NCBI GenBank assembly: GCA_024275415.1
Contig: JAJRZD010000118.1
Location: 1 to 25,061, forward strand
Source of the DNA: an archaeon
GTDB lineage: Archaea; Asgardarchaeota; Thorarchaeia; Thorarchaeales; Thorarchaeaceae
DNA length: 25,061 nucleotides
Direction of reading: 5' to 3'
The translations under genes and the position numbers were made by a program. The notes under the pieces are model-generated. The model did not search any database. It had not been told where the DNA came from and worked only from the letters and a program-made list of their open reading frames with translations. The stretch's first letter is position 1, and every line of letters starts with the position of its first letter. Shown here piece after piece: positions 16,359 to 25,061 of this stretch.

Positions 16359-16415
16359 CTATGAAAACCTCAGCAATTGCAAGTGGTCGCGCACCTACAG
16401 GTGGGTTATAACAAG

Positions 16416-16982
16416 ATGGTAACAGCCCTCTTCAAAGTCGTACTTATGGGCGATGGCTCCGTCGGAAAGACGAGTCTGAGACGAACCTATATGGGTGAAG
16501 GCTTCAAAGCCCAGTACATGATTACGATTGGAGCTGATTTCGCAGTCAAGAAGATGCAACTTGAAGGCGGTCACGACGTGAGCATTCAGATATGGGATCT
16601 TGCAGGTCAGGAACACTTCAAGAATGTCCGCTCGACCTTCTACAAGGGTGCTCAAGGTGCTTTGGCAGTGTATTCCACAGTAGAACGCTCATCGTTTGAT
16701 AATATCCACGACTGGCTGGAAGAGTGTTGGACCAATGCTGGCAAGAAGATTCCAATCGTTCTGATCGGGAATAAGACAGATTTGCGGGATCAGTTCAAGG
16801 ATAATCCTGCGATGCAACAGACAATCGTGACCACTGAAGAAGGCCAAAAACTAGCGGATCGTATAGCTGGCATGGGCGCACATGCATCATTCATCGAAAC
16901 CAGTGCAAAGACAGGTCTGAATGTCGAAGCGGCCTTCTTGGAGCTTGCAATCAAAATACTGGAAGCTGGTGGGCTAGTATAA
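16416..16982 (+). CDS. Rab-like small GTPase (188 aa), no prenylation motif
   Basis: G1 GDGSVGKT, G2 YMITIGADF, G3 IWDLAGQE, G4 NKTD, G5 ETSAK. Start set at ATG 16416 (MVTALFKVVLMG). Confidence 0.93.
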   Translation: MVTALFKVVLMGDGSVGKTSLRRTYMGEGFKAQYMITIGADFAVKKMQLEGGHDVSIQIWDLAGQEHFKNVRSTFYKGAQGALAVYSTVERSSFDNIHDWLEECWTNAGKKIPIVLIGNKTDLRDQFKDNPAMQQTIVTTEEGQKLADRIAGMGAHASFIETSAKTGLNVEAAFLELAIKILEAGGLV

Positions 16983-17436: not shown

Positions 17437-18564
17437 ATGGAATCAAGAGAAATTTCTCTGTTTCTCAAACGTGAAACACTAAAGCCCGAAGCGGCTGTCG
17501 CCGGTGACATAACTCGTCGTCTGGCAATGAATCGAGTAGGTAGGATGATAGGTGCTGCATGTCAGGATCGAACGATTCGCCTATATGACGCGCGAAACTG
17601 TGAGGAGATCCAGCGCATCCAAGATGATGTCCTATGCACCTCGCTTGCTTTCAGTCCTAATGGTGCTTTCCTAGCTACAGGTGATGTCGGGCGCACCGTG
17701 AAGATCTGGGACATTCGTGAAGGAACACGCCTTGCCACATTAGAAGGTCATACGTACCCAGTTCTCTCTCTTGCATTCTCACCTGATGGGAACCATCTGG
17801 TTTCGGGAAGCGGTGATACTTCCCTCATTGTCTGGAATCTCGATTCGAACGAGAAGACACATCAATTACGGGGTCATTCTCTCTACGTCCTAAGTGTGGA
17901 TTGGGATCCCAATGACAACCGCATCGTTTCGTCTTCGGTTGATGCTACCATACGTGAATGGGATCCATATTCCGGAACACCGCTTGCCACACATGAAGAG
18001 CATCGCACCGCAGTCCAGCAGGTTCGTTTCTCACATGATGGGCAAAAACTTGCATCCGCGTCATCAGATCATGTCGTAGTATTATGGCTAGCAGAACATC
18101 CCCTCCGCGTTGAAAAGAGACTACATGCACATAACGAGGAGGTACGTGCAGTCGCATTCAGCCCAGATGGTAAATATCTCGCGTCTGGGTCTGCCGATAA
18201 GGCACTCTTTGTCTGGAATCTGGAAACTTTCACTGTTGAAGGGGAGGGAGTGACACCTAGCGAGATTGACGGGATAGAATGGTACCCTGACAAGCTCGCA
18301 TTCTTGACCGAGGATGACACCGGCGCCATAGTCCGTTGGGATGTGACAGAGCTTGATGCGATTCTCGAACCGTTTCGTAACCTACTCCAAGAGATTGAGA
18401 ATGATCCTGCTGGCAACAGGAGAGAGGAACTAATTAGAAAATACAATGAGGTCGTGTCAAACTACGACCCAGAAGTCCTTCGCGACAAACGACTTTTCTA
18501 TGTGAACTGGCAATGCAAGAAGGCATTGGGACTGCTGAAGGCGAAAGTCAGGAGTTCTTCCTAG
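17437..18564 (+). CDS. WD40-repeat seven-bladed beta-propeller with a C-terminal helical domain
   Basis: Seven WD40 units ending LYD, IWD, VWN, EWD, LWL, VWN and RWD, with GH/EH/AH starts and repeated 'SLAFSPDG..LASGS.D' cores. The tail of about 70 aa is amphipathic helical. Confidence 0.93.
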   Translation: MESREISLFLKRETLKPEAAVAGDITRRLAMNRVGRMIGAACQDRTIRLYDARNCEEIQRIQDDVLCTSLAFSPNGAFLATGDVGRTVKIWDIREGTRLATLEGHTYPVLSLAFSPDGNHLVSGSGDTSLIVWNLDSNEKTHQLRGHSLYVLSVDWDPNDNRIVSSSVDATIREWDPYSGTPLATHEEHRTAVQQVRFSHDGQKLASASSDHVVVLWLAEHPLRVEKRLHAHNEEVRAVAFSPDGKYLASGSADKALFVWNLETFTVEGEGVTPSEIDGIEWYPDKLAFLTEDDTGAIVRWDVTELDAILEPFRNLLQEIENDPAGNRREELIRKYNEVVSNYDPEVLRDKRLFYVNWQCKKALGLLKAKVRSSS

Positions 18565-19094
18565 GATACAGCGGTCGATTCCTCAATCATGGTCTTGCAG
18601 AGAGTGACATATGCTGCCTCGACGTTCTTTCCTGTGAGAGCACTTGACTCGACATAGAGATGGCCGTTCTCTTCTGCCCACTTCTGTCCTTCCTCTGTAG
18701 TCACGGCTCGACTATCTACAAGATCTACTTTATTTGCTACAACTACAAGAGGTATTTCTCGTGTTAGATTCTTGAACGCCTCATCTTTCCAATTCTGGAT
18801 ATTGAGAAATGTTCTTCTCCGTGTCACGTCATATACCAAGAGACCTCCTCGTGCCCCTCTGTAGAACCCTTGACGTACTACTTCGAACCGCGGTTGCCCT
18901 GCAAGATCCCACACCTGAAGTGTGACATTCACATCTATCTCGGGAATCTCAAGTTTCTTTATTGCGAAATCGGATCCAATCGTTCGTTTGTAGTCTGCAT
19001 CAAAGTACTCTTGTGTGAATCGTGTCGTGAGGGCTGTCTTGCCCACAGCACCATCTCCAAGCATAACAACTTTGAAGCGATATTCTCTCGGCAT
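18561..19094 (-). CDS. Rab-like small GTPase (177 aa), no prenylation motif
   Basis: G1 GDGAVGKT, G2 YKRTIGSDF, G3 VWDLAGQ, RF...RQGFYRGA, G4 NKVD, G5 ESSA. ATG 19094 has AAGGAGATGT upstream. Confidence 0.93.
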   Translation of the reverse strand: MPREYRFKVVMLGDGAVGKTALTTRFTQEYFDADYKRTIGSDFAIKKLEIPEIDVNVTLQVWDLAGQPRFEVVRQGFYRGARGGLLVYDVTRRRTFLNIQNWKDEAFKNLTREIPLVVVANKVDLVDSRAVTTEEGQKWAEENGHLYVESSALTGKNVEAAYVTLCKTMIEESTAVS

Positions 19095-19227: not shown

Positions 19228-19626
19228 ATGGAGACTACACATATGGAACGTCCAGACTACCGTTCACTAGTTACAATTCTCGAAGTTATGAATAAGGAAG
19301 GTGGCTTCTTTGCATCAGTCATAGCTAGGGATGATGGCTTCTTGATCGCATCCGATGTATCAGCAACGACTCACCCTGATGTTGTGGCTGCGATGTCTGG
19401 TTATGTCGCCGATACTGTTGAAAGAATGAGAGATGAATTGAAGCTGGGGGATCTCAAAGACATCTCCGTACGCTGCGGGAATGGTAAGGCCGTTTTCAGG
19501 AAAATTGCCTCGCAAGGCAGACAGGCACTTATCATTGCAGCTATCATGCCTAAACATGTGCGGTATCATGCTCGGGCAATCGGGAAAGCCTCTACTCAGA
19601 TCCGAAAAGTCCTTGGATATAGATAG
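19228..19626 (+). CDS. Roadblock/LC7 (MglB-like) domain protein
   Basis: SVIARDDGFLIAS...DVVAAMSG...TVERM..EL.LG.L..I.V.C.NGKAVF...ALIIAAI matches the Roadblock pattern. ATG 19243 is an alternative start. Confidence 0.85.
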   Translation: METTHMERPDYRSLVTILEVMNKEGGFFASVIARDDGFLIASDVSATTHPDVVAAMSGYVADTVERMRDELKLGDLKDISVRCGNGKAVFRKIASQGRQALIIAAIMPKHVRYHARAIGKASTQIRKVLGYR

Positions 19627-19713: not shown

Positions 19714-20043
19714 GTGGATAAAGCGGCAGGCTCGAATGTGAGTGACAAACACACAGACGACACGATTGTGGATATTGTCTTTTTCAAGTCTGATACCTGT
19801 GCTTTCTGTCCGCGAGCCGAGGAGGTGCTCCGAGAAACAATCCAAGACTTTGGGCCAAGCGCGTTCAATCTTTCAATCGTGAATGTTTCACAGAATCCGG
19901 AGGCTGCCGAGGAGTATGGTGTATTTGCATTACCTACAATCATGATTGGAGGCATATCCGTTACAGGTATTCCTGAACCTGAAATGTTGATGAAGATGAT
20001 ACTTGGCTGTAAGATAGCCAAGAAACGGGGGTCTAGACAATGA
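19714..20043 (+). CDS. thioredoxin/glutaredoxin-fold protein (CAFC) with KaiB-like sequence
   Basis: CxxCP (TCAFCP), cis-Pro motif ALPTI, and the segment FNLSIVNVSQNPEAAEEYGVFALPT. The stop overlaps the ATG of the next KaiC-like gene (ATGA). Confidence 0.85.
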   Translation: MDKAAGSNVSDKHTDDTIVDIVFFKSDTCAFCPRAEEVLRETIQDFGPSAFNLSIVNVSQNPEAAEEYGVFALPTIMIGGISVTGIPEPEMLMKMILGCKIAKKRGSRQ

Positions 20044-20786
20044 GTGATTATGAAATTGACCGAGTAAAGACGGGCATTCCTGGATTAGACGAGCTTATTG
20101 AAGGTGGATTTCCACGAGGAGACACGATTCTCGTTGCAGGGAAAGCAGGAACCGGGAAGACGATTATGGCGAACCAGTTCCTGTATTATGGAGCCGTCAA
20201 ATATAATGAGCCGGGTGTGCTGGTAACCCTAGAGGAACCGCCTCGCGCTATCAAGAGGAACATGTTGAGATTCAACATGGATCTTGACTCTCTGGTTCAG
20301 CAAGGAATGTTGGCAATTGTTGATCTTTATCCCTCTAAAGAAGTCGCCCGAGTCAACATTGGCGAGTACCCAAGCTTTGACCTATCTGGACTGGAAGCAA
20401 TCATCATGAATCATGTGAACAAAATTGGTGCCAAGCGTGTGGTTATCGATACGCTTTCTATCTTGGCATACAAGTTCAGAAGTAGGGACATCCTCCGAGA
20501 GGAGTTCTTCAAGCTCACAGCAAACATCACACGACATGGTGCGACACTCCTGCTAACAAGTGAGATTCCTGCCCAAGACTCTGGACTGGGCGTCTTTGAT
20601 ATCGAAGCGTTCCTCGCGTCGGGAGTCGTTGTGCTCTATAATGAGAAGATTAGTGACACATCCCGCTCGCGGTCTATTGAGGTTCTCAAGCTCCGTGGCT
20701 CAAAACACAGTTCGAGGATCCATTCCATGAGGATTACTGATGAAGGAATTCGTGTGTGGCCCGGTGAGATTAGTCCTAGTCATTGA
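20040..20786 (+). CDS. single-domain KaiC/RAD55-family ATPase, KaiC CI-like
   Basis: RVKTGIPGLDELIEGGFP, Walker A GKAGTGKT, QFLYYG...EPGVLVTLEE, FDLS, Walker B RVVIDT, and Arg finger LKLRGS. Confidence 0.9.
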   Translation: MSDYEIDRVKTGIPGLDELIEGGFPRGDTILVAGKAGTGKTIMANQFLYYGAVKYNEPGVLVTLEEPPRAIKRNMLRFNMDLDSLVQQGMLAIVDLYPSKEVARVNIGEYPSFDLSGLEAIIMNHVNKIGAKRVVIDTLSILAYKFRSRDILREEFFKLTANITRHGATLLLTSEIPAQDSGLGVFDIEAFLASGVVVLYNEKISDTSRSRSIEVLKLRGSKHSSRIHSMRITDEGIRVWPGEISPSH

Positions 20787-20807
20787 GATTCAACAGAGGT
20801 GAAATAC

Positions 20808-21518
20808 GTGAATGAACAGCTGGATTCAAGCACATCGACAAGAATGCCAGCAAAGGTCAGTCCTATGATTGGTGACCTTGTTGAATTTGGCCAACTCACT
20901 CAGCTTTCATTCATGCTTTTGGGTCCTTTGGGTTCAGGGAAGACCACGTATGCTGAAGCCTATCTTGCAGAAGGACTAACCCTTGGATTTCCTGCTGTCT
21001 TTGTGACCACTGATGTTTCTCCCAGAGTCATTCGGAATGACATGAGTCGTCATGGTTGGAGCATTGACGAATATGAGAAAGAGGGTCGATTTGTCTTCAT
21101 CGATGGGTATTCGGAGAGGATGGGCGCACCAAGCACTGGCTCTGCTCGGTCACTCTCCAAGGTCGATGATGTCAGTGAGCTGGGAATCGCTCTCTCCGAT
21201 GTGCTAGAGGATCTTGTTGTAGCTCGCGTTGTGATTGATAGCCTTTCCACGCTGATCTTACATTCTGCTCCAGAAGCAATGCCCCGTGCAATTCAGCGGC
21301 TCAGCGGAAGAATCAAACAAGGGTCGCATAGTATCATGTTCATCCTTGAAGATGGTGTCCATGATGAGAAGACATACGCGACGTTCTCTTATCTGGCTGA
21401 CGCTGTTCTGCGATTCAAGATTGATGATAGTGGCGATAAACCATCCTATTACATCCGAATGGAACGTATGAGAGGAAGTGAAACTTCGAGGACTTGGCAT
21501 GATTTCATTATAACCTGA
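20808..21518 (+). CDS. second single-domain KaiC/RAD55-family ATPase (divergent; TTDV in place of the EE motif)
   Basis: Walker A GPLGSGKT, GRFVFIDGYS, Walker B ARVVIDSLSTL and RMRGS. Start moved from GTG 20799, which lies inside the SD GAGGTGA, to GTG 20808, 5 nt after that SD. Confidence 0.87.
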   Translation: MNEQLDSSTSTRMPAKVSPMIGDLVEFGQLTQLSFMLLGPLGSGKTTYAEAYLAEGLTLGFPAVFVTTDVSPRVIRNDMSRHGWSIDEYEKEGRFVFIDGYSERMGAPSTGSARSLSKVDDVSELGIALSDVLEDLVVARVVIDSLSTLILHSAPEAMPRAIQRLSGRIKQGSHSIMFILEDGVHDEKTYATFSYLADAVLRFKIDDSGDKPSYYIRMERMRGSETSRTWHDFIIT

Positions 21519-21584: not shown

Positions 21585-23882
21585 GTGGATTCAGCACTCA
21601 AAGCGACACTAAGAGAAATATTATACGCCTCACTCTCCCTTGATGACGGGTTATCAGCGATTCAGAATTTTGCAATCACGAATGAGAAAGAGGGTTCTTC
21701 TCTCTACTTTGATATCGCACGAATTCTTGAAGAGATAATACTTCGCCGTCCGGGGCTGGCCAGCGCAAAAGTCACTGAACTGACCGTACGACTTGCATTT
21801 GATGAGGATATTGCTCTATGCAAGATGTTGACTCTCCTTGACGCTCGGTACAATACGATACATGAGATTGCGGAGTGCGAATTGCTTCCTGACATCGAGG
21901 CAATCCCAAAGCTTTTGGACATCCATGGCGAGTTGATTCAGGCGATGATTGATGCACTGGAACTCAATCTTCGTCCGCTTTTGCCCTTTTTAACAGATGC
22001 AGTTCTGGTGACGCTCGATGGCATTTCTACCCGTGGGCACAAAGCGACTACAGAAATGGTAGTTCACGAATCACATTATCTTTCAACTCTGCTCTCTGAA
22101 GCTAGAATCTTTGACTGTGCGGAAGCAATCCTAAACAGGTTGATGAGCCTGACAAGCGAGGACGATTTCTCTGAAATTGTTTTTGACGTATCATTGGATG
22201 AAGCATCAGTCTTGACAGAGATTGGTCTGTATAATGAATCCAGAAAAATACTCCACGACCTGCGTGACAACCCGAAGGTCATCAATGACCCCAGCAAGTA
22301 CGCTGCCGTATTGCTTCAACTTGCAGTCAACGAAACCCGCGATGACAATGTTTCTCATGAAACAGCAAGAGCGATTGCTGATGAGGCAGCTCAAAGGATT
22401 GACATGATTACAGACTGTGACACTTCGCCAAAGGAAGGCTTAGCTCTAGCACTTCTGGTGGTAGGGTCGAACATCTTGGTGAACGGATGGCGAGAAGCAG
22501 TTCCTGAAGGAATAGAACGACTACAAGATGCTTTGAAGATATTCGAGGGCATTGAAGACCCTGACATGTCCCAAACAGTACTACATGTGAAATGCCTGAC
22601 GGGATTGGGATTTGCCTATGGACTCATGCGTGACTATGAGCATGTATCAAAGAGCCTTCGCTATTTTAACCAAGCAATCACTGTATTGGAAAAACTCAGG
22701 AACACTAAAGAGTATGAAACTGATCTTGCCCGAGTTCACAATGCAATTGGGTGGGTGTGCCTTTCATCTGAATCAGATGAGTTCTGGGACACCGGAATCG
22801 AGTCTTTTGAGAAAGCAATTGGGATGCGAAACACTCTATGGACTAATGGTGAAATATCCGAACTGGAATTCTTAGGGAGCAAGGTAGGTTTGGCGCTCTC
22901 CCTGATCAGAAGTCCTGATGCTCACAGGGGTTCGATTATTGATGATATGCACTCAATACTCTCGCAGTATGCCCCCCTTTTTCCCACAGACAGACGTGCG
23001 TTCATTGAAACCGCAATCGCCATTTACAACCTTGTTTGGTTATCGATTCGCCATTCAATTGAAATTCCACAACGGATGATGCGCCTTTTGGATGATATTG
23101 ACAAGATGCTGGTCGAAGCTCGGGCATTAGAGGATTCGGTCTTTGTTCACGGTGCCTCCCTTGTCGTACCATACCTTACTTCCTCATGGGATTCGCTTCA
23201 AAAGAGGGCTTCGTTATTGAAAGAAAATCCACAGCTTGCGATAATCGCTCATCTAGCCTATGCTTTAGCAACAGCAAAGCGTAATATTCACGCCTCAAAC
23301 ATGGAAACCGTTTCTACTATCTCTGACGAGTTCGATGATACTGTATATTCAATTGACCCTCTCCTCGCACAGTATTGGAAAGGGCAAGCACGGCTGGGAC
23401 TTACTATCAAGCATTACTATGAGAACAAGGACTACTCCGCTCTTGCGACCGGATTGTATGCTGCATCCCAAGAGATGCGATCTATTGAGAATATCTCCAC
23501 TGACTATCTTGAGTCGGCCGAGTTCATTAGAGCTACGGCTCTCTCACTGTCAAAGTCATTGATGAAATTTGCAATGGTTCTCGCTGAGCATTTTGGAGCA
23601 TCTATCGAGTTTGAAGGTTCTGAACCTGACCCCGTTGAACTAGAAACCGAACAGTACGACTTCCTGTTGACAGGGGATTGGCTAGGTCTCTTGAAGATAT
23701 CCGATTCGTACTTGGATTTAGTAAAGGACTTGGAGTTCTCACAGGCACAGCCATATCTGAATGCAGTATTTTCAAACACAGCACGCGCATTAAGGATGAT
23801 GGATACTGTATCAATGATTGAAAGGCGAGTGTTCGCTCACCTTGGTGACATGATGAATGCCCGATACTATCTCCGGAAATAG
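21585..23882 (+). CDS. large all-alpha TPR-like solenoid protein (765 aa)
   Basis: Helical composition throughout. TPR-like units include CLTGLGFAYGLMRDYEHVSKSLRYFNQAITVLEKL and LARVHNAIGWVCL...GIESFEKAIGMR. No catalytic or transmembrane motif recognised. Confidence 0.75.
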   Translation: MDSALKATLREILYASLSLDDGLSAIQNFAITNEKEGSSLYFDIARILEEIILRRPGLASAKVTELTVRLAFDEDIALCKMLTLLDARYNTIHEIAECELLPDIEAIPKLLDIHGELIQAMIDALELNLRPLLPFLTDAVLVTLDGISTRGHKATTEMVVHESHYLSTLLSEARIFDCAEAILNRLMSLTSEDDFSEIVFDVSLDEASVLTEIGLYNESRKILHDLRDNPKVINDPSKYAAVLLQLAVNETRDDNVSHETARAIADEAAQRIDMITDCDTSPKEGLALALLVVGSNILVNGWREAVPEGIERLQDALKIFEGIEDPDMSQTVLHVKCLTGLGFAYGLMRDYEHVSKSLRYFNQAITVLEKLRNTKEYETDLARVHNAIGWVCLSSESDEFWDTGIESFEKAIGMRNTLWTNGEISELEFLGSKVGLALSLIRSPDAHRGSIIDDMHSILSQYAPLFPTDRRAFIETAIAIYNLVWLSIRHSIEIPQRMMRLLDDIDKMLVEARALEDSVFVHGASLVVPYLTSSWDSLQKRASLLKENPQLAIIAHLAYALATAKRNIHASNMETVSTISDEFDDTVYSIDPLLAQYWKGQARLGLTIKHYYENKDYSALATGLYAASQEMRSIENISTDYLESAEFIRATALSLSKSLMKFAMVLAEHFGASIEFEGSEPDPVELETEQYDFLLTGDWLGLLKISDSYLDLVKDLEFSQAQPYLNAVFSNTARALRMMDTVSMIERRVFAHLGDMMNARYYLRK

Positions 23883-23884
23883 TA

Positions 23885-25061
23885 TCAATACTCCTCCTCG
23901 GGCACCTCTTTTTTGATAGCTCTGTATCCTGCAGTCTGAGCTCCCCACGTTGCCCATCCTGATGTTTCTGTTCGTATCTCATTGGCCAGACCGAAGGACT
24001 CTCTGACTGGTATCTCGGCGATGATCCTGTACAACATACGTTCTGAGTCAATCTCTAGGATGTTGCCTTTACGCCTAGACAGGATTGATGACAGGATACC
24101 AACATGTTCCTCGGGAGTGCTGATATCAAGCCTAATCCACGGCTCCATAAGGACTGGCTCCCCTGAAAGGATGCTTTCTCGTATCGCGGCCACCAATGGC
24201 TGTGTGATGGTTCTCCATGAGGTTTCAGGTGATTCATATCTGATCTGGGCTTCGTTGATGACGATAGTTGTGTTTCGCATCCGCTCATTGTATGTTGGAC
24301 TATTTCGGATAACAACCTTGAATGCCTCACGAACCCACTCGATTTCTTCACTCGTGGTACTTATCTTTCCAGTCGAGTCAACTAGATAACAATCAGAGTT
24401 CGCCATCTCATCGATAACCATTCCTATTTTAGAAACGTCACTTTCGCTAGACCTGATCGCCTGAACTGTGAACTTACTTGTTTGCTCATCTCCCACACCC
24501 GTGACTTTTCCATCCTTCATCATCTCTTCTTTGAGCACGACCATTGGTTTTCCAAGGTTTATGCTTACCCCAGTGCGTGCGAGCTTTTCCACTGTAATCT
24601 CAACGTGGAGCTCTCCTGCCCCAGAAAGAAGCATTTCTCCTGTTTCTTCATTTATCTCGAACTCCAATTGTGGATCTGACTTCACAAACTCCCTGATCGC
24701 CTGTTGGACATCGTTCAACTCGGCAAGCCTTTTTGGCTCAACTGCGTATGTCACTACTGGTTCTGTTGGATACTGAAGTCCCTTCATTGGTATCATGTCA
24801 CTATTGTCCAAGTCTACTAGTGTGTCCCCTGTCACAAGGTTTCTTATCTCTGTAACGAATGCAAGGTTTCCCGCTGGGATCTTGTCGTGTGGCACACGAG
24901 TCTTGGACATGAACAGACCAATCTGCAGAGTCTTTCCCTGACGCAAAGTTCTGAGATTGAATAGAGGTCTTCCCCGTTGCAGTGTTCCTGAAAATATCCG
25001 TACTGCTGCAACCTGCCCTGCATGTCTGTCTGGTTGGACATTTCCTACCAGCAATAACAGG
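23885..25061 (-). CDS. translation elongation factor 2 paralog (aEF-2p-like), domains II-V only; 5' part lies outside the window
   Basis: VRIFSGTL, EPVVTYAVEPK, DPQL.FEINEETGEMLLSGAGELHVEI, LMEP...I..PEEHVG.....LSRRKG, PVRESFG.ANEIR.ETSG.A.W. The frame is open to the window edge. The diphthamide HRG motif is absent. Confidence 0.88.
   Translation of the reverse strand, partial: LLLLVGNVQPDRHAGQVAAVRIFSGTLQRGRPLFNLRTLRQGKTLQIGLFMSKTRVPHDKIPAGNLAFVTEIRNLVTGDTLVDLDNSDMIPMKGLQYPTEPVVTYAVEPKRLAELNDVQQAIREFVKSDPQLEFEINEETGEMLLSGAGELHVEITVEKLARTGVSINLGKPMVVLKEEMMKDGKVTGVGDEQTSKFTVQAIRSSESDVSKIGMVIDEMANSDCYLVDSTGKISTTSEEIEWVREAFKVVIRNSPTYNERMRNTTIVINEAQIRYESPETSWRTITQPLVAAIRESILSGEPVLMEPWIRLDISTPEEHVGILSSILSRRKGNILEIDSERMLYRIIAEIPVRESFGLANEIRTETSGWATWGAQTAGYRAIKKEVPEEEY

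What the first reader, a model, noticed from the sequence alone, without database searches (positions are those of the whole stretch)
19714..21518. Candidate new system: proto-KaiBC operon (KaiB-like thioredoxin + split CI-like and CII-like KaiC)
Seen in sequence: three genes with an ATGA overlap and a 21-nt gap. The first combines an intact CAFC redox motif with segments that align to cyanobacterial KaiB as recalled (RAEEVL vs RALKTL; FNLSIVNVSQNPEAAEE vs YALKVIDVLKNPQLAEE; VFALPTI vs ILATPTL). The second closely follows KaiC CI (QFLYYG..YNEPGVLVTLEE, loop + FDLS, IEAFLAS vs VEEFVSD, LKLRG). The third carries Ser where CII has S431. Established: KaiB binds the CI ring in its thioredoxin-like fold, and single-domain KaiC ATPases are proposed signalling hubs in archaea. 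Inference: a KaiA-less, redox-gated KaiBC-like switch or timer built from two stacked or mixed rings, possibly resembling the state before KaiC domain fusion and KaiB fold switching. Oscillation is not shown by the sequence.
Basis: partly seen in the sequence, partly recalled or inferred. Interest (0 to 1): 0.85.

Follow-up and report, generated by a model that had tools for sequence, protein, structure and literature searches.

The report
Redox thioredoxin on Thorarchaeal KaiC module
In Thorarchaeota (Asgard archaea), a small redox-active thioredoxin gene always sits just ahead of one active and one degenerate KaiC-type ATPase, next to a Roadblock protein and the crystallised 'Thor-Rab' GTPase, and a model places it on the KaiC loop where the clock protein KaiB binds, giving a testable but unproven redox/ATP input to an Asgard GTPase switch.

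Summary
The three genes are real and lie as described: Trx 19714-20043, KaiC1 20040-20786 (ATGA overlap) and KaiC2 20799/20808-21518.

The thioredoxin is an MJ0307-type CxxC protein, not a KaiB family member. Its Pfam KaiB score is 24.8 bits (cut-off 27), against 101 bits for a true KaiB. CxxC and the cis-Pro are invariant in 21 orthologues.

KaiC1 is a complete, CI-like single-domain KaiC. KaiC2 is not CII-like. It belongs to the degenerate 'iKaiC'/DUF7504 kind, with the catalytic EE replaced by DV.

The real unit is larger: Thor-Rab GTPase, Roadblock, Trx, KaiC1, KaiC2 and a TPR-like protein. It was kept in all loci read from one Thorarchaeal order.

A complex model puts the Trx active-site face on the KaiC1 B-loop equivalent: ipSAE 0.63, best control 0.00. 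This could be memory of solved KaiB/SasA-CI complexes.

Three other Asgard families have a Trx-fold gene in the same position before a KaiC. Eleven of the twelve loci read lack CxxC. Two of those read in full add an iKaiC-GTPase fusion and a Roadblock.

The 'KaiB-like role' is therefore plausible. The 'split CI+CII proto-clock' is not supported.

This scan noted the same cluster earlier in other Thorarchaeota genomes. I found no paper describing it.

The parts
17437..18564 (+). WD40 beta-propeller protein (375 aa), a conserved neighbour
   Evidence: Pfam WD40 179 bits. Present next to the GTPase in related loci.
18561..19094 (-). Rab-like small GTPase, counterpart of the crystallised Thor-Rab. 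The ORF is open up to 19187, but the likely start is the Met at 19094.
   Evidence: Pfam Ras 173 bits. PDB 7EZB 'Thorarchaeota Rab' 301.5 bits over residues 1-176. Divergent from Roadblock in family f1 and co-directional in f2.
19228..19626 (+). Roadblock/LC7-like protein (132 aa), first gene of the co-oriented run. It has one conserved Cys (C83).
   Evidence: Pfam Robl_LC7 17.5 bits, below the cut-off of 23. PDB 7YH1 Roadblock, E 0.004. Conserved in all loci read. C83 is present in 19 of 20.
19714..20043 (+). MJ0307-type thioredoxin (109 aa) with CAFC (19798-19809), cis-Pro ALPT, a family-specific GIPEPEM motif and a basic tail
   Evidence: PF13192 33.7 bits (cut-off 24.8), KaiB 24.8 bits (cut-off 27). 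TIGR00411 54 bits. 1FO5 50.6 bits. AF2 model pLDDT 83.9 with b-a-b-a-b-b-a order, and the Foldseek top 50 are all thioredoxins. C29, C32 and P74 are invariant in 21 sequences.
20040..20786 (+). KaiC1: single-domain, catalytically complete KaiC-type ATPase (Walker A 20139-20162; catalytic EE 20232-20237)
   Evidence: PF06745 233 bits. KaiC CI 178 bits against CII 77 bits. K40, E65, E66, D137 and R219 are invariant.
20319..20411 (+). KaiC1 residues 94-124, the B-loop equivalent (invariant core EYPSFDLSGL) and predicted docking site of the Trx
   Evidence: Interface list. Residues 109-121 are 90-100% conserved, 111-116 and 118 invariant. It aligns with the FDLS(A/G)L of KaiC CI, whose F122/D123 are needed for KaiB and SasA binding (bioRxiv 10.1101/2020.06.17.158394).
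20799..21518 (+). KaiC2: degenerate KaiC-like protein (iKaiC/DUF7504 kind). Walker A, Walker B and the Arg are kept. Catalytic EE is replaced by invariant TTDVSPR (21006-21026). S197/Y198 lie at 21387-21392. The alternative start is GTG 20808.
   Evidence: PF06745 109 bits and DUF7504 47.7 bits. Invariant residues. Profile against PDB: PH0284 102 bits, KaiC CI 57-61 bits, CII 24 bits. 30-32% identical to DUF7504-type genes in other KaiC operons.
21585..23882 (+). 765-aa TPR-like helical protein, conserved downstream in family f1 only
   Evidence: No Pfam hit. Language-model features point to TPR clusters (0.94, weak recognition). 40-49% identical orthologues follow KaiC2 in L021, L024 and L025, but not in f2.

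Best explanation
This is a lineage-wide Thorarchaeal signalling module. It is not a clock and not a split CI/CII KaiC.

The co-oriented genes Roadblock-Trx-KaiC1-KaiC2, followed in most genomes by a TPR-like protein, lie beside the Rab-like GTPase 'Thor-Rab'.

KaiC1 is the working ring ATPase. KaiC2 binds nucleotide but is a hydrolysis-impaired iKaiC partner.

The thioredoxin holds the operon position that KaiB holds in kaiBC. It most likely docks, through its CxxC/cis-Pro active-site face, on the exposed B-loop equivalent of KaiC1.

Neither KaiC protein of this window has any cysteine. The CxxC therefore cannot be reducing KaiC itself.

The inferred mechanism has two forms. Either the redox state of the Trx gates its capture by KaiC1, or the nucleotide state of KaiC1 controls access to the Trx active site. 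In both cases redox and ATP status would be passed on to the Roadblock/Rab-like GTPase switch.

Shown here: the genes, their motifs, their conservation and the recurrence of the architecture. Supported only by a model: the Trx-KaiC1 contact. Inferred: redox gating and output to the GTPase.
For: 1. Conservation. The Trx orthologue occurs in 71 of 85 genomes of family f1 and 1 of 1 of f2 (same order). It was not found in the other 313 genomes of the phylum at E<=1e-15. All 19 related loci first read keep Roadblock > Trx > KaiC1, plus KaiC2 wherever the contig reaches, and Rab-like GTPase and WD40 matches in most. The Trx-KaiC1 junction is -20 to +9 nt in 20 of 20 loci. In f2 all five genes, GTPase included, are co-directional with gaps of 46, 76, 0 and 26 nt.

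2. Redox competence. C-x-F-C-P and the cis-Pro are invariant in 21 orthologues. The closest solved proteins are the MJ0307 and MTH895 thioredoxins. The model has a thioredoxin fold.

3. Docking. Complex prediction scored Trx against KaiC1+KaiC2 at 0.63, with the best of 3 controls at 0.00. That mark was reached by 58 of 80 solved complexes and 2 of 110 mismatched pairs. These counts hold only roughly, because my own alignments and three chains were used. The runs agree in at least 93% of contacts and the partner's pLDDT is at least 74. Contacts are with KaiC1 only (residues 94-124, 142-146). On the Trx they cover 24-35 (CxxC), 58-75 (cis-Pro loop) and 80-95. The best pairs are KaiC1 F113/D114 with Trx A72/L73. 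These KaiC1 residues align with KaiC F122/D123, which are needed for KaiB and SasA binding.

4. Trx interface residues are more conserved than the rest of the domain (entropy 0.44 against 1.10).

5. KaiC1 keeps K40, E65/E66, D137 and R219. KaiC2 keeps K48, D147 and R220/223/225, but has D72-V73 in place of EE, invariantly.

6. Recurrence. In 12 of 12 loci from three other Asgard families, a Trx-fold gene directly precedes a KaiC1-like gene (35-40% identity). Two of these, read in full (one each from f21 and f7), continue with an iKaiC-GTPase fusion, a Roadblock and a second iKaiC. One locus (f13) has a CxxC Trx with 98.9% hhalign probability to the Thor family, followed by a KaiC and a RagA-like GTPase.

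7. A second KaiC/iKaiC cluster in the same genome also ends in a Ras-family GTPase.
Against: - The docking result may be the model's memory of the solved fsKaiB-CI and SasA-trx-CI complexes. KaiC1 is about half identical to CI, and the Trx shares the fold. No control with another thioredoxin of the same genome could be run.
- No Trx-KaiC fusion was found.
- The KaiC1 interface as a whole is no more conserved than the rest of this very conserved protein.
- KaiC paralogues without a Trx neighbour have similar F-x-h-x-x-L motifs.
- An invariant CxxC fits an ordinary reductase with an unknown client just as well.
- There are no expression or biochemical data.
- The Roadblock assignment is sub-threshold in Pfam.
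Confidence: 0.5

Rival explanations
1. A proto-KaiBC timer in which a KaiB homologue with a CxxC binds a CI-like ring, a separate CII-like ring carries the phosphosite, and the whole represents KaiC before domain fusion.
For: The Trx is in the kaiB position and is modelled on the B-loop. KaiC1 is CI-like. KaiC2 S197/Y198 align with S431/T432 in HMMER's CII alignment. The KaiB HMM gives 24.8 bits, the same range as the CxxC-less Asgard proteins in that position (20-28 bits).
Against: KaiC2 matches CI (57-61 bits) better than CII (24 bits). It lacks the catalytic EE that a CII kinase needs. It groups with DUF7504-type iKaiC genes. The Trx fails the KaiB cut-offs, while a true Asgard KaiB scores 101 bits. 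The KaiB HMM gives similar sub-threshold hits in 10 control genomes, among them E. coli and B. subtilis, that have no hit over its cut-off. S197 is not invariant. Nothing in the sequence speaks to oscillation.
Confidence: 0.1
2. The thioredoxin is an ordinary disulfide reductase. It is co-transcribed because it keeps a cysteine of a cluster protein or of a client reduced, for example Roadblock C83. The modelled contact with KaiC1 is an artefact.
For: The CxxC and cis-Pro are invariant and the fold is typical. Roadblock has one conserved Cys (19 of 20) and the GTPase one (14 of 17). The docking may be model memory (caveat).
Against: Start/stop overlap with KaiC1 in nearly all loci suggests matched amounts of the two proteins. 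Related Asgard clusters keep a Trx-fold protein in this position without any CxxC, so the position does not require redox chemistry. Family-specific conserved residues (GIPEPEM) lie in the modelled interface.
Confidence: 0.25
3. The two ATPases are RadA/Rad55-type recombination or repair paralogues, and the neighbours are unrelated.
For: Weak RadA/RadB/DnaB hits to the P-loop region of KaiC1.
Against: KaiC family scores are far higher (233 and 109 bits against about 17 bits). There are no DNA-binding domains. Synteny with signalling proteins is conserved.
Confidence: 0.03

Closest known systems
[quoted passage not shown]
   Same: A small thioredoxin-fold protein is encoded directly before a KaiC gene. 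It is modelled on the loop that aligns with the CI B-loop, with F113/D114 matching F122/D123.
   Different: It keeps an invariant CxxC and a standard Trx beta-hairpin. It fails the KaiB thresholds (24.8 bits here against 101 bits for a true KaiB). There is no sign of fold switching. The partner is a single-domain KaiC plus a separate degenerate KaiC. There is no KaiA, SasA kinase or CikA.
MJ0307 / MTH895 small archaeal thioredoxins (PDB 1FO5, 1NHO; TIGR00411; Pfam Thioredoxin_3)
   Same: Best sequence and fold matches, CxxC-P and cis-Pro, about 80-residue core.
   Different: It scores below the TIGR00411 equivalog cut-off (54 against 92.75). It has a variable acidic N-tail, the GIPEPEM motif and a basic C-tail. 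Its genetic coupling to KaiC genes is fixed.
Archaeal KaiC-like 'signal transduction hubs' with inactivated KaiC (iKaiC) partners (Makarova, Galperin and Koonin 2017, mBio; the paper is not held here, so this rests on my own knowledge and on PMC5847659)
   Same: An active single-domain KaiC is paired with degenerate KaiC-like proteins and signalling partners. Several such clusters occur in this genome.
   Different: I found no description of a thioredoxin partner or of the link to a Rab-like GTPase and Roadblock. I could not read that paper itself to check.
Thor-Rab (PDB 7EZB/7EZD/7EZE; Tran et al. 2024, PMC10933270) and the MglA/MglB GTPase-Roadblock logic
   Same: The cluster's GTPase is the counterpart of the crystallised Thor-Rab (301 bits). 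It sits back to back with a Roadblock gene.
   Different: That paper mentions no thioredoxin, ATPase or gene context for Thor-Rab. Here the Roadblock gene heads the Trx-KaiC operon.
Asgard five-gene cluster: KaiB-like, KaiC, iKaiC-GTPase fusion, Roadblock, iKaiC (families f21 and f7; loci L055, L056)
   Same: The same set of parts in nearly the same order. A Trx-fold gene directly precedes a KaiC1-like gene.
   Different: There the small protein lacks CxxC and scores 20-28 bits on KaiB, and the GTPase is MglA/Arf-like and fused to an iKaiC. In Thorarchaeota the small protein is redox-active and the GTPase is Rab-like and a separate gene.

Membership tests
KaiB (Pfam PF07689; TIGR02654) | Score at or above the curated cut-off of the family model | tested here: not met
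   PF07689 gives 24.8 bits against a cut-off of 27, covering profile positions 17-55 of 82 only. TIGR02654 gives 13.8 against 145.3. A true Asgard KaiB scores 101 bits. Similar sub-threshold hits occur in 10 of 14 control genomes, only Synechococcus being over the cut-off.
KaiB (Pfam PF07689; TIGR02654) | No redox CxxC, and a fold-switching C-terminal half (the LPPP...IIGDLSD region) | tested here: not met
   CAFC is invariant. The C-terminal half is a normal Trx hairpin plus helix in the model. The hhalign match to a true KaiB covers 44 columns only.
KaiB (Pfam PF07689; TIGR02654) | Encoded next to kaiC and binds the CI B-loop | tested here: inconclusive
   Adjacency is met. Binding is only modelled: 0.63 against a best control of 0.00, possibly from memory of solved complexes.
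Small archaeal thioredoxin (Pfam Thioredoxin_3 PF13192; MJ0307 family TIGR00411) | Family model score, CxxC, cis-Pro and thioredoxin fold | tested here: met
   PF13192 gives 33.7 against 24.8. CxxC and cis-Pro are invariant. The fold and the Foldseek hits are thioredoxins. The stricter TIGR00411 equivalog cut-off is not reached (54.2 against 92.75).
KaiC family ATPase domain (Pfam PF06745) | Family model score; Walker A, catalytic Glu pair, Walker B and Arg finger | tested here: met
   KaiC1 scores 233 bits with all motifs invariant. KaiC2 scores 109 bits but lacks the Glu pair.
Circadian KaiC (TIGR02655 / PRK09302) | Two fused domains of about 500 aa; CII with S431/T432 and the A-loop | tested here: not met
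   Both proteins are single-domain. KaiC1 scores 158 against 546 and 206 against 408.
KaiC CII domain (the claim made for KaiC2) | Closer to CII than to CI; catalytic EE kept for kinase activity | tested here: not met
   The profile scores 57-61 bits to CI and 24 bits to CII. EE is replaced by DV. S197 does align with S431.
iKaiC / DUF7504 (Pfam PF24336) | Family model score; degenerate catalytic site; encoded beside an active KaiC | tested here: met
   KaiC2 scores 47.7 against 27. It is 30-32% identical to DUF7504-type genes in two other KaiC operons.
MglA/MglB-type GTPase-Roadblock pair | A small GTPase encoded beside a Roadblock-fold protein that regulates it | tested here: inconclusive
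   Adjacency is conserved. The GTPase is Rab-like, not MglA-like. Roadblock is sub-threshold in Pfam (17.5 against 23). Regulation was not tested.

The most novel reading that the evidence does not exclude
The KaiC-linked thioredoxin-fold proteins of Asgard archaea, with CxxC in Thorarchaeota and family f13 and without it in f21 and f7, form one lineage that shares ancestry with KaiB. On this reading KaiB arose from a redox-active thioredoxin that already docked on the KaiC B-loop. In Asgard archaea the Trx/KaiC/iKaiC unit would be an ATP- and redox-dependent controller of small GTPases of the Rab or MglA kind.
Probability: 0.15. Interest if true: 0.85.

Novelty: new variant of a known kind. 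Interest (0 to 1): 0.6.

Why it matters
- KaiC-like ATPases are the most expanded and least understood signalling family in archaea.
- Asgard small GTPases are central to ideas on how eukaryotic membrane regulation began, yet none has a known regulator or input.
- This cluster ties the one Asgard Rab-like GTPase with a crystal structure to a Roadblock protein, a KaiC/iKaiC pair and a redox-active thioredoxin in KaiB's position.
- It yields concrete pull-down, ATPase and GTPase experiments with five small soluble proteins.
- It offers a natural series for asking how KaiB relates to thioredoxins: CxxC Trx, CxxC-less Trx fold, canonical KaiB.

Tried and rejected
- An apparent Trx-KaiC1 fusion (open frame 359 aa in G338 and G341) is not one. 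An in-frame stop separates the two genes.
- A search for longer proteins holding this Trx found none. This is weak evidence.
- The search for related loci with the double-domain KaiC P0122 found nothing in genome contigs.
- Sequencing runs: none was listed, and no RNA holder was listed.
- The sigma-70 promoter and terminator scan is not meaningful for an archaeon, and its counts were near those of shuffles.
- The PADLOC defence models gave nothing relevant.
- Makarova et al. 2017 could not be read, by DOI or by PMC id.
- I considered the FDLS motif as a marker of KaiC proteins with a Trx partner. I rejected it because paralogues without a Trx have similar motifs.
- Nearest single-domain relatives of KaiC1 (P0165, P0173) have no Trx neighbour. 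One double-domain relative has a KaiB downstream and another has none.
- hhalign of the Trx family against a true KaiB (86%), a generic Trx paralogue (93.7%) and the CxxC-less P0271 (91.9%) does not separate the options.
Full report
**1. The observation**

One search lists three + strand ORFs at 19714-20043 (109 aa), 20040-20786 (248 aa) and 20799-21518 (239 aa).

Reading the DNA:
- The first gene starts at a GTG, with AGGAG 9 nt upstream.
- Its stop overlaps the ATG of the second gene in ATGA (20040-20043).
- The third gene starts 12 nt after the second at GTG 20799, or 21 nt after it at GTG 20808.
- CAFC is residues 29-32 of the first protein.

**2. What the three proteins are**

*The small protein.*
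- Pfam: Thioredoxin_3 33.7 bits (cut-off 24.8). KaiB scores 24.8 bits (cut-off 27), over profile positions 17-55 only.
- NCBIfam: MJ0307-family thioredoxin 54 bits, circadian KaiB 13.8 bits.
- The best solved relatives are the MJ0307 and MTH895 thioredoxins (1FO5 at 50.6 bits, and 1NHO). No KaiB is among the 60 listed.
It is the shared thioredoxin-fold motif.
- An AlphaFold model (pLDDT 83.9) has the minimal b-a-b-a-b-b-a thioredoxin fold with a long last helix. The 50 best Foldseek matches are thioredoxins.
- In the whole genome this protein is the only hit of the KaiB model at E<=1. The same model gives sub-threshold hits in 10 of 14 control genomes, including E. coli, B. subtilis and M. jannaschii; only Synechococcus elongatus has a hit over the cut-off.
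- A true KaiB from another Asgard genome scores 101 bits.
- The protein is therefore not a KaiB family member.
- C29, C32, the following Pro and the cis-Pro loop are invariant or nearly so in 21 orthologues. Redox chemistry, or at least the active-site geometry, is under selection.

*KaiC1.*
- It scores 233 bits on the KaiC domain.
- It matches the CI half of solved KaiC proteins much better than the CII half (178 against 77 bits).
- Walker A Lys, the Glu pair, Walker B Asp and the Arg are invariant.
- It is no closer to cyanobacterial CI than to archaeal single-domain KaiC proteins (PH0186 156 bits; CI-only constructs about 154 bits).
- In a library of 1.84 billion representatives its 50% cluster stands alone. 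The next relatives are at 45% identity or less.

*KaiC2.*
- It scores 109 bits on KaiC and 47.7 bits on DUF7504.
- A profile of 21 orthologues matches PH0284 best (102 bits). It matches KaiC CI at 57-61 bits but CII at only 24 bits.
- Walker A, Walker B and three Arg are invariant. The catalytic Glu pair is replaced by an invariant TTDVSPR, that is Asp-Val.
- It is 30-32% identical to DUF7504-type genes that accompany active KaiC genes in two unrelated metagenomic operons. It is only 26% identical to the CI of a double-domain KaiC, and scores just 34 bits to that protein's CII.
- KaiC2 is thus an 'inactivated KaiC' partner, not a CII equivalent.
HMMER puts S197/Y198 on S431/T432. The Ser is present in 20 of 21 sequences.

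**3. The real unit is larger**

The neighbours are:
- a WD40 protein;
- a Ras-family GTPase on the other strand;
- a Roadblock-like protein just upstream;
- a 765-aa protein downstream with no Pfam hit, which looks TPR-like by language-model features.

The GTPase is the counterpart of the crystallised Thor-Rab (7EZB, 301.5 bits over 176 residues). The paper on Thor-Rab mentions neither a thioredoxin nor an ATPase, and gives no gene context for it.

Names attached to homologues identify the group as Candidatus Thorarchaeota.

Distribution of the Trx orthologue:
- 71 of 85 genomes of family f1;
- the one genome of f2, in the same order;
- not found in the other 313 genomes of the phylum at E<=1e-15.

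All 19 loci first read, from 16 genera, keep Roadblock > Trx > KaiC1, with KaiC2 following wherever the contig reaches; most also show the divergent Rab-like GTPase and the WD40 gene.

Over the 20 loci that hold all three genes, the gaps are:
- Trx to KaiC1: -20 to +9 nt;
- KaiC1 to KaiC2: 7-35 nt;
- Roadblock to Trx: 63-114 nt, with one of 272.

In f2 the GTPase is co-directional and all five genes are packed with gaps of 46, 76, 0 and 26 nt.

**4. Does the Trx bind KaiC1?**

I gave complex prediction the three proteins as matched alignments, with the Trx as the scored partner.
- Score 0.63, with the best of 3 controls at 0.00.
- The mark was reached by 58 of 80 solved complexes and 2 of 110 mismatched pairs. 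These counts hold only roughly here, because my own alignments and three chains were used.
- The runs agree in at least 93% of contacts, and the partner's pLDDT is at least 74.

All confident contacts are with KaiC1. None are with KaiC2.
- On KaiC1: residues 94-124 and 142-146.
- On the Trx: residues 24-35 (CxxC), 58-75 (cis-Pro loop) and 80-95.
- The tightest pairs involve KaiC1 F113/D114.

These align with the FD of FDLS in KaiC CI. The literature identifies this stretch as the B-loop. F122/D123 there are required for binding of both fold-switched KaiB and the SasA thioredoxin-like domain (bioRxiv 10.1101/2020.06.17.158394; PMC6378743).

The model therefore places the Trx as KaiB sits on CI. 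Such complexes are solved and KaiC1 is about half identical to CI. The pass may reflect memory, and it shows likeness rather than binding.

Side evidence:
- The Trx interface residues are much more conserved than the rest of the domain (entropy 0.44 against 1.10). Part of this is expected for any thioredoxin active site.
- The KaiC1 core 109-121 is 90-100% conserved, with 111-116 and 118 invariant. KaiC1 is highly conserved throughout.
- Neither KaiC protein of this window contains a cysteine (read). The CxxC cannot act on them.
- Roadblock has one conserved Cys, in 19 of 20 sequences.

**5. The same architecture elsewhere in Asgard archaea**

The nearest outside relative of KaiC1 is a double-domain KaiC (P0122; 43% and 37% identity for its two halves).

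Its metagenomic locus reads: DUF7504-type iKaiC, V4R protein, a 92-aa protein whose stop overlaps the KaiC start, then the KaiC. That small protein has the thioredoxin-fold motifs but no CxxC. It aligns with the Thor Trx family at 91.9% hhalign probability.

Earlier notes of this scan prompted me to search the phylum with it. I found matches in families f21 (6 of 6), f7 (5 of 5) and f13 (2 of 3).

In all 12 loci fetched, the small gene directly precedes a KaiC1-like gene of 35-40% identity.

Loci read in full:
- **L055 (f21) and L056 (f7).** KaiB-like protein without CxxC, active KaiC, an iKaiC fused to an Arf/Ras-type GTPase (387 and 379 aa), Roadblock (55 bits in L055), and a second DUF7504 iKaiC.
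- **L057 (f13).** A CxxC (CGFC) thioredoxin with 98.9% hhalign probability to the Thor family, then a KaiC, then a RagA-like GTPase, with a TPR protein next door.

The CxxC-less proteins score 20-28 bits on KaiB and 22-25 bits on Thioredoxin_3. That is the same twilight range as the Thor Trx. tblastn links the Thor Trx to the f7 proteins directly, at 31-36% identity over about 80 residues, including a shared FKS(D/E) start.

The parts list (Trx-fold protein, KaiC, iKaiC, small GTPase, Roadblock) therefore recurs across at least four Asgard lineages. The iKaiC-GTPase fusion is independent evidence that the ATPase module and the GTPase work together.

In the window's own genome, a second cluster (contig C97) joins a KaiC, three iKaiC-like genes, receiver domains and another Ras-family GTPase.

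**6. Reading**

The best-supported account is a KaiC-type signalling module.
- KaiC1 is the motor.
- KaiC2 is a nucleotide-binding but hydrolysis-impaired partner.
- The thioredoxin is a KaiB-position adaptor whose active-site face meets the B-loop equivalent.
- The Roadblock/Thor-Rab pair is the likely output.

Redox gating is an inference. It rests on the invariant CxxC lying in the modelled interface and on the absence of cysteines in the KaiC proteins.

The 'KaiB-like role' survives as a functional analogy, possibly with shared ancestry. Family membership does not.

**7. Novelty**

Full-text searches found:
- no paper holding Asgard, KaiC and Roadblock together;
- none holding KaiC, MglB and archaea together;
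- among the papers listed as holding at least three of KaiC, archaea, thioredoxin and Roadblock, none describes this link, judged by title and abstract.

The key 2017 survey of archaeal KaiC neighbourhoods could not be read. Prior mention there cannot be excluded.

This scan has noted the same Thorarchaeal cluster, and the related five-gene cluster, on other genomes. My results agree with those notes and were obtained independently here, except for the lead to the five-gene cluster.

I rate it a new variant of a known kind, of moderate to good interest, and resting so far on computation only.

Noticed in passing
window 16377-16982 (+): A second Rab-like GTPase lies upstream of the WD40 gene. 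Matches of 43-45% identity to the cluster's GTPase occupy the same position in L024 and L025, so this flank is conserved too.
   Followed up: partly
L029 (own genome, contig C97:27500-34500): A second KaiC cluster. It holds a receiver domain, a 477-aa iKaiC with GvpD-like P-loop, and an active KaiC on one strand. On the other strand are two DUF7504-type iKaiC genes and a Ras-family GTPase. It has no thioredoxin.
   Followed up: partly
L031 (own genome, contig C100:39500-46500): A KaiC gene here is interrupted by an in-frame TAG. It lies beside a 620-aa TPR protein, a 461-aa iKaiC and three receiver-domain genes. It could be a pseudogene, a read-through or an assembly error.
   Followed up: no
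L041 (Asgard genome G160, family f24): A canonical kaiB (101 aa, 101 bits) overlaps the start of a 506-aa double-domain kaiC. A second kaiC lies upstream and a receiver/PAS histidine kinase downstream. Some Asgard archaea therefore carry a standard KaiBC set.
   Followed up: partly
window 23885-25060 (-): The C-terminal part of an elongation factor 2-like gene abuts the cluster. In the f2 locus L023 a 698-aa gene only 39% identical to it lies directly after KaiC2. This may be a divergent EF-2 paralogue that travels with the cluster.
   Followed up: no
L057:5402-5860 (+), Asgard family f13: A 152-aa protein with no Pfam hit sits just upstream of the CxxC Trx-KaiC-GTPase run, where Thorarchaeota have Roadblock. 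It might be a divergent Roadblock or longin fold.
   Followed up: no
L035 (GCA_964633445.1 contig): The nearest single-domain relative of KaiC1 (45% identity) heads a run of three overlapping KaiC-type genes (KaiC, KaiC, DUF7504 iKaiC). There is no Trx-fold gene.
   Followed up: no
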